Below are positions 37,251-39,897 of a stretch of 64,000 nt of DNA, piece by piece (positions within the stretch are counted from its first letter, which is position 1; every line of letters begins with the position of its first letter). Below the pieces are notes generated by a model, which saw only the letters and a list, made by a program, of their open reading frames with translations, searched no databases and had not been told where the DNA came from. The stretch lies in the sequence record PZ445440.1; one strand, 5' to 3'. A program made the position numbers and the translations under genes. Origin of the DNA: a phage.

Positions 37251-37814
37251 TTATTTACCTAGTTTAGTTATTATAGCTTCGGCAGCAGCTTTTAGCTTAG
37301 ATGCAGTGTTAATACGATTTTTAATTTCAGTATACGCATCGCCAAGAACATCAAGGCTATCAGAATAAACACTTACACTATTGCGTTCGCTATTTGAAAT
37401 AGAACCTTTAGTTTTACGATCAAAATCAGTGTACACGTCTTGAAGATCACGGGCTGCCTTCTTTGCATCATCCAATGCATCAAGAGCTTTATTCAAAGCA
37501 TTGACATATTTTTTAGTGTCAAACATATTCTTAGAAATTTTAACAGGTGCACGTTCAGGAGTAGCTAAGGCGGATTTAGGAACCTGCGCGCCAGATGCCA
37601 GTTTCTTAGAAATTTTGAAAAACGCTTTATTGAAACTATTTTCTTGACTCATCGTAAAAGAACTAGTATCGATGTTATACATTTCAATAGCTTTGGCTTT
37701 CCACTTAAGAAAATCGCTACGGTCTTTTGGGTCTAAGTGGAAGAATACTTTAGTAAGATCTGCTTCAGATGGTAATTTTGCTGCTTCGGTTAAAAATTCG
37801 GCGTAGGTTTTCAT
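37251..37814 (-). CDS. internal-protein-like protein (CTS MKTYAEFLTEA), 187 aa
   Basis: ORF track; CTS-like N-terminus. Confidence 0.7.
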   Translation of the reverse strand: MKTYAEFLTEAAKLPSEADLTKVFFHLDPKDRSDFLKWKAKAIEMYNIDTSSFTMSQENSFNKAFFKISKKLASGAQVPKSALATPERAPVKISKNMFDTKKYVNALNKALDALDDAKKAARDLQDVYTDFDRKTKGSISNSERNSVSVYSDSLDVLGDAYTEIKNRINTASKLKAAAEAIITKLGK

Positions 37815-37936: not shown

Positions 37937-38401
37937 TTATTTGATTTGTTTAGCAGACCAAATGCGGTCTTTAATAAGTTTTTGGATATCTTCAACATAC
38001 TCAAGGCTATGAGCGTGAGGATTATCTTTGAAACTATGTGCTCGTGCCAGTTTCTGGCCTTCTGTTTTGATTACTAAAAGCTCTTTAAGAATTGCTTCAT
38101 ACTTAGAAATAATTCCTTTGGCGATATTTTTTTCTTGAGCTGTTTTATGGTCCGCTTTTGGCACAGGTGCTTTACCTGTAGCTTTCTGGAACAATTCACC
38201 TGATGCAGCTAGGCTTTTAAAAACTCGGCTAACAGTATTAGCATTAGTAAAACCTTCGGCTTTAAAATCTCTAATAAAACGGAAACGTTCTTCATCGGAG
38301 GCGTCTTTGTAAGAATATTTACCTGCTTGAATTGCTGCAATCGCAGCGGCTTTTACATCTGAACTAGATTGTTCAGTCAAAAATTCAGCGTATGATTTCA
38401 T
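37937..38401 (-). CDS. internal-protein-like protein (CTS MKSYAEFLTE), 154 aa
   Basis: ORF track; CTS-like N-terminus. Confidence 0.7.
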   Translation of the reverse strand: MKSYAEFLTEQSSSDVKAAAIAAIQAGKYSYKDASDEERFRFIRDFKAEGFTNANTVSRVFKSLAASGELFQKATGKAPVPKADHKTAQEKNIAKGIISKYEAILKELLVIKTEGQKLARAHSFKDNPHAHSLEYVEDIQKLIKDRIWSAKQIK

Positions 38402-38447
38402 GTTGCTTTTCCTAAGTTAATTAACTTATCTATTTATTATGCCAAAA

Positions 38448-38471
38448 AGCCCCAACCGTAAGGAAGGGGCT
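38448..38471 (-). terminator. terminator-like hairpin (AGCCCC-n12-GGGGCT + T-run)
   Basis: Read in sequence. Confidence 0.45.
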
Positions 38472-38782
38472 AAGCCTTGCGGCAACCTTGTCGGGGTTCC
38501 ACCTGCTAAGGCAAGTGTTTGTACGAAACGCCGGGATTTGAACCCGGTTATCAAGCAGTTGACGCTACTCAATATTTTTAAAAGGCCATATCTCGACCAT
38601 ATCCGAACGTTCCGTCAAAAACGCTACTCGGCTTACGGCAAAGATATTTCCTCGAATCGATAATTCTGTGCGCCGTTTCTGCTGTGATGTAAGGGGATAT
38701 TAACAAATCATAAAGATTTATTAAGACCAGTCCTTACTCAGGGAACATCAGTCCGACGACTTGCCGGTAGCGACCCGGCTTC

Positions 38783-39127
38783 TTATTTTGACATATCATC
38801 AATTTGTTCTCTACGTCTACGCCATAGATTAATTACTTCATCAACACATTCGGCGTTTGATATATGACGGCAATAATATAATGATTCGCGTTTCTGGAAC
38901 CGATGTTGCAATGGGATTTCGTTTAAAAGGTCTTTACGGTCAAAGTATTCAAAACTAGTTAACCCGGAACGGTTTTTAATGAACTTCCAATGTCCAAATT
39001 CATTTTGAACATAGATGTAATCGGCATGCTGATACAGCGAATTAATCAATCGATGAGAAATAACTGTATCATATTCGTTAAAATAAAACGTTAAATCATG
39101 AACTACTAGATAAATATTGCCTTTCAT
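38783..39127 (-). CDS. hypothetical protein (114 aa)
   Basis: ORF track 38783..39175 would overlap the tRNA; ATG 39127 with GAGGAAA upstream. Confidence 0.55.
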   Translation of the reverse strand: MKGNIYLVVHDLTFYFNEYDTVISHRLINSLYQHADYIYVQNEFGHWKFIKNRSGLTSFEYFDRKDLLNEIPLQHRFQKRESLYYCRHISNAECVDEVINLWRRRREQIDDMSK

Positions 39128-39145: not shown

Positions 39146-39222
<77 letters not shown>

Positions 39223-39228
39223 AATATA

Positions 39229-39302
39229 TGACCCAGACCAGATTCGAACTGGTAACCTTTCCCTTATGAGGGGACTGCTGCTAACCATTGAGCTACAGGG
39301 CC
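39229..39302 (-). tRNA. tRNA with anticodon CAU (Met or lysidine-type Ile), no encoded CCA
   Basis: Manual fold: GGCCCTGTAGCTCAATGG 5-prime, anticodon loop CTCATAA, T arm ACCAG-TTCGAAT-CTGGT; one acceptor mismatch; coordinates +/-2. Confidence 0.6.
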
Positions 39303-39381
39303 TAAATAACTTTCTATTATGAAAGGCACTTTAGAGCACCTTTGGTAATAGAGGGTATGAATTAATAATAACACATAATTC

Positions 39382-39897
39382 TTAAAGCAAATCAATCATT
39401 TTAACAGTTGGCAAAACGATTTCTTCTTCAATATAAGCAAATTCAACACATTCAACTACACGCAAGAAATCATAATCATAATATTCAGAAGCATGGCCAA
39501 GAATACCAACGAGACCTTCTGATACTAAATATCCATTCTCACGGAACAGGTCGAATACACGCGATTCGTCTTCTTCAGATTTATTACCAAGGTCGACTTC
39601 AATATCAAAGACCTTTTTAATGAATTCTGGATAAAGCTGGTCTGAGAACAGTCCTTCAACCAAGTATTCATAAATTAAAAGCGAGCAATCACTGAATGGT
39701 GTATTACCACAGTAACGTTCAGCTTTAGTGCTAGAATGACTGCTCTTAAATTTCTTCAAGAGATATTTAAACTGTTGGAGCTCATGCTCTTCCACTTCAA
39801 ACAATGTTTTGGTTTTATAGTTGTCACCATCATTTTCATAGGTAGTGACATCAATTACGTAGCCCTTAGGAATTGTACTGCCTAAACAAATATTCAT
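39382..39897 (-). CDS. hypothetical protein (171 aa)
   Basis: ORF track. Confidence 0.65.
   Translation of the reverse strand: MNICLGSTIPKGYVIDVTTYENDGDNYKTKTLFEVEEHELQQFKYLLKKFKSSHSSTKAERYCGNTPFSDCSLLIYEYLVEGLFSDQLYPEFIKKVFDIEVDLGNKSEEDESRVFDLFRENGYLVSEGLVGILGHASEYYDYDFLRVVECVEFAYIEEEIVLPTVKMIDLL

What the first reader, a model, noticed from the sequence alone, without database searches (positions are those of the whole stretch)
38402..38782. 380-bp ORF-free region with a tRNA-like T-arm and several hairpins: candidate small RNA locus
No credible ORF exists between the ip-like gene at 37937..38401 and the gene at 38783..39127. On the minus strand there is a perfect T-arm-like element (CCGGG-TTCAAAT-CCCGG at about 38532..38548) followed by a 7-nt acceptor-like strand, but I could not fold a complete canonical tRNA around it. 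The region also has a terminator-like hairpin (38448..38471) and a GCCGG-n7-CCGGC hairpin (about 38730..38750). T4 carries two stable small RNAs (species 1 and 2) in its tRNA cluster, so an analogous ncRNA or a degenerate tRNA is plausible.
Basis: seen in the sequence. Interest (0 to 1): 0.5.

Follow-up and report, generated by a model that had tools for sequence, protein, structure and literature searches.

The report
Phage T4 small RNAs rnaC/rnaD
The gene-free stretch holds this phage's copies of two small stable RNAs (species 1 and 2, rnaC and rnaD) known from phage T4 since the 1970s, one of them a tRNA look-alike; their function is still unknown, so the finding is real but not new.

Summary
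The window is a T4-like Mosigvirus, 100% identical to Escherichia phage ChristianSchoenbein/Bas46, where this stretch is unannotated. The features described are real. One hairpin was misplaced by about 30 nt.

On the minus strand, 38786..38667 is the orthologue of T4 rnaD (species 2 RNA, 82% identity). 38660..38522 is the orthologue of T4 rnaC (species 1 RNA, 97% identity). A conserved trailer hairpin and an intrinsic terminator (38442-38471) follow.

rnaC folds as a tRNA-like four-way junction: a 7-bp acceptor stem, a canonical T-arm, and two other arms. Twenty-nine of its 49 pairs show compensatory changes across 24 sequences from several T4-like genera.

The loops of the two non-tRNA arms (UUGACG and CGUCAA) are complementary. 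They co-vary to UUGGCG and CGCCAA in Marfavirus-type Klebsiella phages, which argues for a kissing-loop contact.

ARAGORN and Rfam find nothing here because no model exists, not because no RNA exists. The small ORFs in the stretch are broken in relatives.

Function remains unknown. A published convergent adaptive SNP in phage BW-1 restores a stem base pair in rnaD, which hints at a host-dependent role.

Verdict: already known, low to moderate interest.

The parts
38667..38786 (-). rnaD orthologue (T4 species 2 RNA), about 120 nt. Ends are mapped from the T4 annotation, not measured.
   Evidence: Alignment to T4 NC_000866 71053-71171 gives 99 identical of 121 columns. The 5' ~48 nt and 3' ~25 nt are invariant in 11 homologues. 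blastn finds 735 phage records, and some of them annotate 'rnaD'.
38763..38779 (-). rnaD 5' hairpin GCCGG-GUCGCUA-CCGGC.
   Evidence: The closing pair covaries A-U to G-C.
38668..38760 (-). rnaD long irregular hairpin. It is closed by GUCGUCG/CGGCG-CAC and has a variable apical stem.
   Evidence: The window MFE is -39.3 kcal/mol with z -3.9. The same architecture appears in four divergent homologues. 94% of cells are paired and 8 pairs show compensatory change.
38522..38660 (-). rnaC orthologue (T4 species 1 RNA), about 139 nt, a tRNA-like four-way junction.
   Evidence: 135 of 139 positions are identical to T4 70908-71046. The covariance model scores 164.5 bits, and this is the only copy in the window. 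MFE is -49.3 kcal/mol with z -3.75.
38653..38659 (-). rnaC acceptor-like stem, 5' strand CGAUUCG.
   Evidence: It pairs with 38524-38530. The third pair covaries A-U to G-C, and the two U.U mismatches are invariant.
38524..38530 (-). rnaC acceptor-like stem, 3' strand CGUUUCG. U-ACA follows here, and U-CCA follows in Marfavirus-type phages.
38531..38547 (-). rnaC T-arm CCGGG-UUCAAAU-CCCGG.
   Evidence: The middle pair covaries G-C to U-A.
38583..38652 (-). rnaC long arm in the D-arm position. Its apical loop carries UUGACG at 38613-38618.
   Evidence: Seventeen of its 20 pairs (helices 3 and 4) show compensatory change.
38549..38574 (-). rnaC 10-bp hairpin in the anticodon-arm position, with the 6-nt loop CGUCAA at 38559-38564.
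   Evidence: Nine of 10 pairs covary. The loop is complementary to UUGACG of the long arm, and the two loops co-vary to UUGGCG/CGCCAA in Klebsiella phages.
38500..38517 (-). Conserved 3'-trailer hairpin CACUUGC-CUUA-GCAGGUG just after rnaC.
   Evidence: It is conserved in T4. It is also present in Dhakavirus EcWhh-1, which lacks rnaC. Fold.
38442..38471 (-). Intrinsic terminator of the tRNA/small-RNA operon: AGCCCC...GGGGCU followed by UUUUU.
   Evidence: MK373779 annotates a putative terminator shortly downstream of its rnaC copy. A paper on T4 states that transcription ends after the species I gene (PMC2330249).
39146..39302 (-). Upstream tRNA-Arg(UCU) and tRNA(CAU), probably in the same transcription unit.
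   Evidence: ARAGORN and Rfam.
39365..39390 (-). MotA-box-like TTGCTTTA, a 12-nt spacer, then TATTAT. This is a candidate T4-type middle promoter for the unit. It is an inference from sequence.
   Evidence: Read. No TATAAATA late promoter lies nearby.

Best explanation
**Identity.** The region encodes the Mosigvirus orthologues of the two small stable RNAs of phage T4, both on the minus strand. rnaD (species 2) lies at about 38786-38667 and rnaC (species 1) at about 38660-38522.

**Biogenesis (inferred from synteny and T4 literature).** They are probably co-transcribed with tRNA(CAU), tRNA-Arg and a 114-aa ORF, from a promoter upstream of the tRNAs to the terminator at 38442-38471. rnaC has a tRNA-type acceptor stem stacked on a canonical T-arm. 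It is therefore most likely cut out and finished by the host tRNA-processing machinery: RNase P at the 5' end, then 3' trimming and possibly CCA addition. rnaD is left as a hairpin-protected fragment between processing sites.

**Structure (shown by covariation).** rnaC is a four-way junction. Its two non-tRNA arms end in complementary 6-nt loops, which probably kiss. This would give a rigid two-helix body attached to the tRNA-like minihelix.

**Function (inference, about 0.3).** Both RNAs probably act in trans as protein-binding decoys or scaffolds, with rnaC as a tRNA mimic lacking an anticodon. They would give a host-dependent fitness benefit rather than serve as essential or purely cis-acting elements.
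For: **Identity and synteny**
- The window is 100% identical to Mosigvirus phage ChristianSchoenbein.
- It aligns base for base with the T4 misc_RNA features rnaD and rnaC, trailer and terminator: rnaC 97.1%, rnaD 81.8%.

**rnaC structure**
- 96.1% of cells are paired, and 29 of 49 pairs show compensatory changes in 24 sequences.
- 0 of 500 shuffles reach this, and slid controls give about 39% paired.

**tRNA-like processing context**
- In Kagamiyamavirus, Karamvirus and Gelderlandvirus, rnaC fills a gap of about 150 nt between tRNA genes. It starts 4-6 nt after the upstream tRNA's CCA.
- Marfavirus-type copies encode ...CGUUCCG-U-CCA.
- One GenBank record calls the 3' part 'tRNA-OTHER'.

**Kissing loops**
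- UUGACG and CGUCAA are fully complementary in all 24 sequences, and A-U changes to G-C in one clade.

**Not coding**
- The ORFs carry stops or frameshifts in homologues.

**Selection and trans function**
- This phage keeps only 2 tRNAs in the window, against 8 in T4, yet keeps both small RNAs.
- rnaC occurs without rnaD in other genera, and rnaD occurs without rnaC in Dhakavirus.
- T4 RNAC and RNAD are detected by northern blot (PMC9697503).
- T4 has a single transcript of about 1.75 kb that is the precursor of the tRNAs and of species I and II (PMC2330249).
- The convergent BW-1 SNP selected on host ECOR34 (PMC12685909) maps to RNA position A76G of rnaD. It restores a C-G pair present in a T2-like relative and brings back the canonical fold.
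Against: - There are no expression data for this phage, and the mature ends are only transferred from the T4 annotation.
- ARAGORN and Rfam give no hit.
- The 3' end here reads U-ACA, not U-CCA, so CCA addition is only inferred.
- The kissing-loop covariation rests on one evolutionary event. It cannot tell an intramolecular contact from an intermolecular one.
- rnaD covariation is modest: two of five measures are not clearly above the shuffles, and T4 rnaD folds no better than shuffles (z -0.8).
- The function of both RNAs is stated as unknown in every paper found. From memory, T4 deletions of the tRNA region are viable on laboratory hosts.
- The decoy role is untested.
Confidence: 0.85

Rival explanations
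1. Purely cis-acting region. The hairpins serve only as processing signals, 3'-end protection and a terminator for the tRNA/ORF transcript. The excised fragments would be stable by-products with no function of their own.
For: The region lies at the 3' end of the operon and ends in a conserved trailer hairpin and terminator. No function has been found in 50 years.
Against: In other genera rnaC sits in the middle of tRNA clusters, not at the operon end. Loop and internal-loop sequences are invariant far beyond what stems need. The two RNAs occur independently of each other. A single base-pair-restoring SNP in the apical stem of rnaD is strongly selected on one host.
Confidence: 0.12
2. Base-pairing riboregulators. 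The invariant loops (CGUCAA and UUGACG in rnaC, GUCGCUA in rnaD) pair with host or phage mRNAs.
For: The loops are invariant across genera. One paper calls them 'small regulatory RNAs' without evidence.
Against: The two rnaC loops are complementary to each other and co-vary, which is explained by mutual pairing. Six-nt seeds are short. blastn finds no E. coli counterpart. No target has been identified.
Confidence: 0.08
3. Decayed tRNA gene(s), that is, pseudogenes left over from a larger tRNA cluster, with no selected function.
For: Only the acceptor stem and T-arm look like tRNA, and tRNA finders fail. Mosigviruses have lost most T4 tRNAs.
Against: rnaC is 97% identical to T4. Twenty-nine pairs covary, including pairs in the non-tRNA arms, across several genera. 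A pseudogene would not keep compensatory changes.
Confidence: 0.03
4. Small protein-coding genes, as annotated ('hypothetical protein') in some GenBank records over this stretch.
For: ORFs of 74, 48 and 42 aa exist. Several records carry CDS calls here.
Against: Each ORF is broken by stop codons or frameshifts in T4 and in other close relatives, while the nucleotide sequence stays 92-99% identical.
Confidence: 0.02

Closest known systems
Phage T4 rnaC (species 1 RNA, about 140 nt)
   Same: 97% identical. It holds the same position after rnaD and before the same trailer and terminator, and has the same fold.
   Different: Four substitutions, for example T-loop UUCAAAU against UUCGAAU in T4. In this phage a 114-aa ORF separates tRNA-Arg from the small RNAs, and the cluster has 2 tRNAs rather than 8.
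Phage T4 rnaD (species 2 RNA, about 120 nt)
   Same: The 5' 48 nt and 3' 25 nt are nearly identical, and the architecture is the same: a 5' hairpin plus a long hairpin.
   Different: The apical stem sequence differs (82% identity overall). T4 reads ...GCGCACCA at the 3' end, and this phage reads ...GCGCACAG.
tRNA mimics with an acceptor/T-arm minihelix: the tmRNA tRNA-like domain, bacterial YrlA Y-RNAs, plant-virus tRNA-like structures
   Same: An acceptor-type stem stacked on a T-arm with a canonical T-loop, with the anticodon arm replaced by other structure.
   Different: There is no tag ORF or pseudoknot series, and ARAGORN calls no tmRNA. Rfam gives no YrlA or TLS hit on rnaC. There is no G3:U70. 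The ends form the acceptor stem, unlike YrlA. This is a resemblance, not membership.
   Same: Two fully complementary 6-nt hairpin loops that co-vary.
   Different: It is not known whether the contact is within one molecule or between molecules. There is no link to DNA packaging.
Phage tRNAs that replace or decoy host tRNAs attacked by defence nucleases (PARIS, retron/PtuAB, PrrC; from memory)
   Same: Encoded in the phage tRNA cluster, dispensable on laboratory hosts, and with a host-dependent benefit suggested for rnaD.
   Different: rnaC has no anticodon loop, so it cannot decode or replace a tRNA. No defence system has been tied to either RNA.

Membership tests
T4 rnaC / species 1 RNA family | Full-length sequence homology to T4 rnaC | tested here: met
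   135 of 139 positions identical. The covariance model scores 164.5 bits.
T4 rnaC / species 1 RNA family | Location inside the phage tRNA transcription unit | tested here: met
   It lies downstream of tRNA-Arg and rnaD and upstream of the conserved terminator. In other genera it lies between tRNA genes.
T4 rnaC / species 1 RNA family | Conserved four-way fold with acceptor stem and T-arm | tested here: met
T4 rnaC / species 1 RNA family | Accumulates as a discrete stable RNA of about 140 nt in infected cells | not testable with these tools
   Shown for T4 only, by northern blot (PMC9697503).
T4 rnaD / species 2 RNA family | Sequence homology and synteny with T4 rnaD | tested here: met
   81.8% identity overall with invariant 5' and 3' blocks. 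It lies immediately upstream of rnaC.
T4 rnaD / species 2 RNA family | Conserved secondary structure | tested here: met
   94% of cells are paired and 8 pairs show compensatory change, but support is weaker than for rnaC.
Canonical tRNA (Rfam RF00005) | Complete cloverleaf with D-arm and a 7-nt anticodon loop | tested here: not met
   ARAGORN calls none. Rfam gives no tRNA match in 38402-38782 even at E<=10. The arm in the anticodon position has a 10-bp stem and a 6-nt loop.
Canonical tRNA (Rfam RF00005) | 7-bp acceptor stem contiguous with a 5-bp T-arm carrying a UUCRANY loop | tested here: met
   The stem contains two invariant U.U mismatches.
Canonical tRNA (Rfam RF00005) | 3' N-CCA end, encoded or added | tested here: inconclusive
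   The window and T4 encode U-ACA. Marfavirus-type homologues encode U-CCA. Post-transcriptional addition cannot be tested here.
tmRNA | tRNA-like domain plus a tag reading frame and pseudoknots | tested here: not met
   ARAGORN reports no tmRNA and Rfam gives no hit.
Hammerhead ribozyme (considered because rnaD has CUGAUG...GAAAC) | Three helices around a CUGANGA / GAAA / UH core in the correct order | tested here: not met
   There is no stem I between the closing stem and CUGAUG. Position 9 is U. Rfam gives no hit.
Intrinsic (Rho-independent) terminator | G+C-rich hairpin followed by a U-run at the end of the unit | tested here: met
   AGCCCC...GGGGCU plus UUUUU lies at 38442-38471 and is conserved in T4. 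The simple scanner missed it because the stem has an internal U.U/U.U mismatch.

The most novel reading that the evidence does not exclude
rnaC is a tRNA mimic without an anticodon, locked by a kissing-loop contact, and rnaD is a structured partner RNA. Both act as decoys against host factors that differ between natural E. coli strains, for example tRNA-directed immunity or toxin nucleases. If so, the 50-year-old 'species 1 and 2' RNAs would be anti-defence or host-range determinants. The BW-1 A76G reversion on ECOR34 would be the first phenotype for either RNA.
Probability: 0.2. Interest if true: 0.7.

Novelty: already known. Interest (0 to 1): 0.3.

Why it matters
For genome annotation, these two RNA genes are missing from this phage's record and from most of the roughly 800 related records. 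They are often overwritten by spurious 'hypothetical protein' calls, and Rfam has no family for them, so automated pipelines will keep missing them.

For biology, their role has been an open question since the 1970s. Three results here make it easier to test:
- a covariation-backed structure for rnaC;
- a co-varying loop-loop contact in rnaC;
- the reading of a published adaptive SNP as a stem-restoring change in rnaD.

None of this changes the classification of the finding as a known element.

Tried and rejected
- **Standard RNA finders.** ARAGORN and Rfam at E<=10 found no relevant hit. This is uninformative because no model for these RNAs exists.
- **Loose motif scan of IMG/VR.** The pattern TTTGACG...CGTCAA...GGTTCRA gave 120 loci. 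None matched the rnaC covariance model, so they were chance hits.
- **Unbiased end-anchored scan of metagenomes.** It returned only T4-type and Marfavirus-type copies. No further independent loop covariation was found.
- **rnaD as a permuted or degenerate tRNA, or as a hammerhead.** The hammerhead idea came from CUGAUG...GAAAC. Both were rejected on topology and the absence of an Rfam hit.
- **Small ORFs as genes.** Rejected.
- **Host counterpart of the RNAs.** None was found in 5,426 complete E. coli genomes by blastn.
- **Late promoter.** No TATAAATA lies near the unit.
- **Classical literature.** Miller 2003 is not held, and two literature searches were unproductive. Statements about RNase P processing of T4 species 1, and about who determined its sequence in the 1970s, therefore rest on memory.

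Full report
**What the window is**

The 381-bp stretch is 100% identical to Escherichia phage ChristianSchoenbein (Bas46, MZ501056), a Mosigvirus of the Tevenvirinae. The stretch carries no annotation in that record. blastn finds it in 810 phage records, 680 of them over at least 80% of its length.

**Check of the observation**

|---|---|---|---|
| T-arm CCGGG-TTCAAAT-CCCGG (minus strand) | about 38532-38548 | 38531-38547 | 1, 77 |
| 7-nt strand CGTTTCG | after the T-arm | 38524-38530 | 1, 77 |
| Terminator hairpin plus T-run | 38448-38471 | 38442-38471 | 62, 77 |
| GCCGG-n7-CCGGC hairpin | about 38730-38750 | 38763-38779 | 39, 77 |

ARAGORN finds only tRNA-Arg(UCU) at 39146-39222 and tRNA(CAU) at 39229-39302. 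Rfam at E<=10 gives only two chance-level hits in the stretch, STnc50 and isrK, both far below gathering score.

**Identity**

The T4 reference record annotates two misc_RNA genes directly downstream of tRNA-Arg on the minus strand. rnaD ('species 2 RNA') is at 71053-71171 and rnaC ('species 1 RNA') is at 70908-71046.

The minus strand of the window aligns with them without rearrangement.
- rnaD maps to 38786..38667, with 99 identical of 121 columns.
- rnaC maps to 38660..38522, with 135 of 139 identical.
- The next roughly 80 nt (trailer hairpin and terminator) are 89% identical.

The GCCGG hairpin is the 5' hairpin of rnaD.

Compared with T4, this phage has a 114-aa ORF (phrog_3355, unknown function) inserted between tRNA-Arg and rnaD. 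ARAGORN finds only two tRNA genes in the whole 64-kb window, against eight in T4.

**Not coding**

The three short ORFs in the stretch acquire stop codons or frameshifts in T4 and in eight other close relatives. Nucleotide identity in those relatives stays at 92-99%.

**Structure of rnaC**

I collected homologues in three ways:
- blastn against the phage collection;
- an IMG/VR pattern scan;
- a metagenome scan.

They come from Tequatrovirus, Mosigvirus, Kagamiyamavirus, Karamvirus, Gelderlandvirus, Moonvirus, Kanagawavirus and Marfavirus, and from the Edwardsiella phage PEi20 group.

RNAalifold and single-sequence folding agree on a four-way junction. Its parts are:
- a 7-bp acceptor-like stem (C-G, G-C, A-U/G-C, U.U, U.U, C-G, G-C);
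- a roughly 70-nt long arm where a tRNA has its D-arm;
- an A-rich linker;
- a 10-bp hairpin with a 6-nt loop where a tRNA has its anticodon arm;
- a canonical T-arm adjacent to the acceptor 3' strand.

On 24 distinct sequences aligned with a covariance model, the counts are as follows.

| Measure | Observed | Control |
|---|---|---|
| Cells paired | 96.1% | 84.5% in shuffles; 37.5-45.7% when partners are slid |
| Pairs with compensatory change | 29 of 49 | 0 of 500 shuffles reach the observed values |

This alignment was fitted to the model, which favours the structure. The independent MAFFT/RNAalifold analysis gave the same helices, with 20 covarying pairs.

**A loop-loop contact in rnaC**

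The apical loop of the long arm reads UUGACG, and the loop of the second hairpin reads CGUCAA. They are perfectly complementary and invariant in all other sequences.

The five Marfavirus-type copies (three Klebsiella-phage records and two metagenome contigs) read UUGGCG and CGCCAA. This is an A-U to G-C compensatory change. It is one evolutionary event, so the evidence is suggestive rather than strong.

The helix lengths fit an intramolecular contact. The apical stem, the kiss and the hairpin add up to 5 + 6 + 10 bp, about the same as the lower long arm at about 20 bp. That would give two side-by-side rods. This is inference, and dimerisation is not excluded.

**tRNA-like processing context**

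In EcS1, EnA02 and Melville, rnaC fills a gap of about 150 nt between two tRNA genes. It begins 4-6 nt after the upstream tRNA's CCA. The Marfavirus-type copies end ...CGUUCCG-U-CCA, an encoded discriminator plus CCA, whereas T4 and the window read U-ACA. One GenBank record labels the 3' part 'tRNA-OTHER'.

Together with the acceptor/T-arm minihelix, this makes release by the tRNA-processing enzymes the most economical model.

A paper on SegB states that in T4 transcription runs through the whole cluster and ends after the species I gene. It gives a primary transcript of about 1.75 kb as the precursor of the eight tRNAs and of species I and II (PMC2330249). That RNase P processes T4 species 1 is my recollection of the 1970s-80s literature and was not verified here.

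Upstream of tRNA(CAU) there is a MotA-box-like TTGCTTTA, 12 nt, then TATTAT (39390-39365). This is a candidate middle promoter. No TATAAATA lies nearby.

**Structure of rnaD**

Eleven homologues share an invariant 5' block (AAGAARCCGGGUCGCUACCGGYAAGUCGUCGGACUGAWGUUCCCUG) and an invariant 3' block (UCACAGCWGAAACGGCGCAC). Between them lies a variable apical stem.

All fold as a small 5' hairpin plus a long irregular hairpin. 94% of cells are paired and 8 pairs show compensatory changes. Statistical support is weaker than for rnaC. I found nothing tRNA-like in rnaD. A superficial hammerhead-like CUGAUG...GAAAC has the wrong topology.

**Distribution**

At blastn sensitivity, rnaD is confined to phages of Escherichia, Shigella, Yersinia and Salmonella of the Tequatrovirus, Mosigvirus and Dhakavirus type. 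rnaC extends to phages of Klebsiella, Enterobacter, Citrobacter, Kosakonia, Edwardsiella and Proteus. Dhakavirus EcWhh-1 has rnaD and the trailer but no rnaC.

The two RNAs are therefore separable modules. blastn finds no counterpart in 5,426 complete E. coli genomes.

**Function**

Every paper found says the role is unknown (PMC3014915 from 2010, PMC9697503 from 2022, PMC12685909 from 2025). The 2022 study detected RNAC and RNAD by northern blot and classed them as late-accumulating.

The 2025 study found a single convergent SNP at position 164264 of phage BW-1, in all three lines adapted to host ECOR34. Relative virulence rose from 0.17 to 0.98. The authors placed the SNP in rnaD.

I mapped the SNP. 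It is A76 to G in the RNA, in the apical hairpin. It converts CACAG...CUAUG into CACAG...CUGUG, the sequence found in a T2-like relative. This restores a C-G pair, and the canonical fold returns, with MFE moving from -25.9 to -31.0 kcal/mol.

I read this as evidence that an intact rnaD structure gives a host-specific benefit. This is my inference, not the authors' claim.

My preferred model combines four points:
- the retention of both RNAs in a phage with only two tRNA genes in the window;
- the invariant loops;
- the independence of the two genes;
- the BW-1 result.

The model is trans-acting, protein-binding RNAs with a host-dependent role, with rnaC as a tRNA mimic without an anticodon. 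I put this at about 0.3. The alternatives are a purely cis-acting processing/terminator module, base-pairing regulators, pseudogenes and small ORFs, and each has specific evidence against it (see rivals).

**Comparison with known systems and verdict**

The locus is a member of the T4 rnaC and rnaD families by homology, synteny and fold. It is not a tRNA, tmRNA, Y-RNA-like RNA or hammerhead by the tests run. It works like other acceptor/T-arm mimics only in the sense of sharing that module.

The covariation-backed fold, the co-varying loops, the encoded CCA in Marfavirus-type copies and the reinterpretation of the BW-1 SNP are modest additions. They make the old question of function easier to test.

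Noticed in passing
window 38783-39127 (-): A 114-aa ORF (phrog_3355, unknown function) sits between tRNA-Arg and rnaD, where T4 has only 1 nt. Its TAA stop codon (38783-38785) lies inside the 5' leader of rnaD as mapped from T4. Releasing rnaD would therefore cut this mRNA at its stop codon.
   Followed up: partly
window 39365-39390 (-): MotA-box-like TTGCTTTA, a 12-nt spacer, then TATTAT. It overlaps the stop codon of the upstream gene (39382-39897) and lies just before tRNA(CAU). It is a candidate T4-type middle promoter for the tRNA/small-RNA unit.
   Followed up: no
window 38431-38438 (-): AATAAATA, a 7-of-8 match to the T4 late-promoter consensus TATAAATA. It lies between the terminator and the Shine-Dalgarno sequence and ATG of the ip-like gene, and may drive late expression of that gene.
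   Followed up: no
window 37251-37814 (-) and 37937-38401 (-): Two paralogous genes (both phrog_2280) begin MKTYAEFLTE and MKSYAEFLTE. From memory, this resembles the capsid-targeting sequence of T4 internal proteins. They occupy the place where T4 has e.8 and its neighbours.
   Followed up: partly
L132:1201-1343, L133:1199-1341, L138:599-741, L140, L148: Marfavirus-type Klebsiella phages carry an rnaC variant with the co-varied loops UUGGCG/CGCCAA and an encoded U-CCA 3' end. Several records annotate a 'hypothetical protein' with an RBS over it.
   Followed up: yes
L150 (phage BW-1 OR125554, record position 164264): The published convergent adaptive SNP is A76G in the apical hairpin of the rnaD RNA. 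It restores a C-G pair present in a T2-like relative (L010).
   Followed up: yes
L006:1599-1745 (Dhakavirus EcWhh-1): This phage has rnaD followed directly by the trailer hairpin and terminator, with rnaC cleanly absent. The sequence just upstream of rnaD (…CACCGGCGCAAC) resembles the 3' end of rnaD itself.
   Followed up: no
L134:1173-1268 (MK373779): A GenBank record annotates the 3' two-thirds of rnaC as 'tRNA-OTHER, tRNA-???(aa)'. Many other records place hypothetical-protein CDSs over rnaC and rnaD. Few records name the RNAs; RB7 and Aplg8 annotate rnaD.
   Followed up: partly
L136:423-517 (Citrobacter phage Ursula): The rnaC covariance model gives a weak hit (22 bits, E 0.006) to a class II tRNA-Ser with a long variable arm. 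This probably reflects the shared acceptor stem and T-arm.
   Followed up: no
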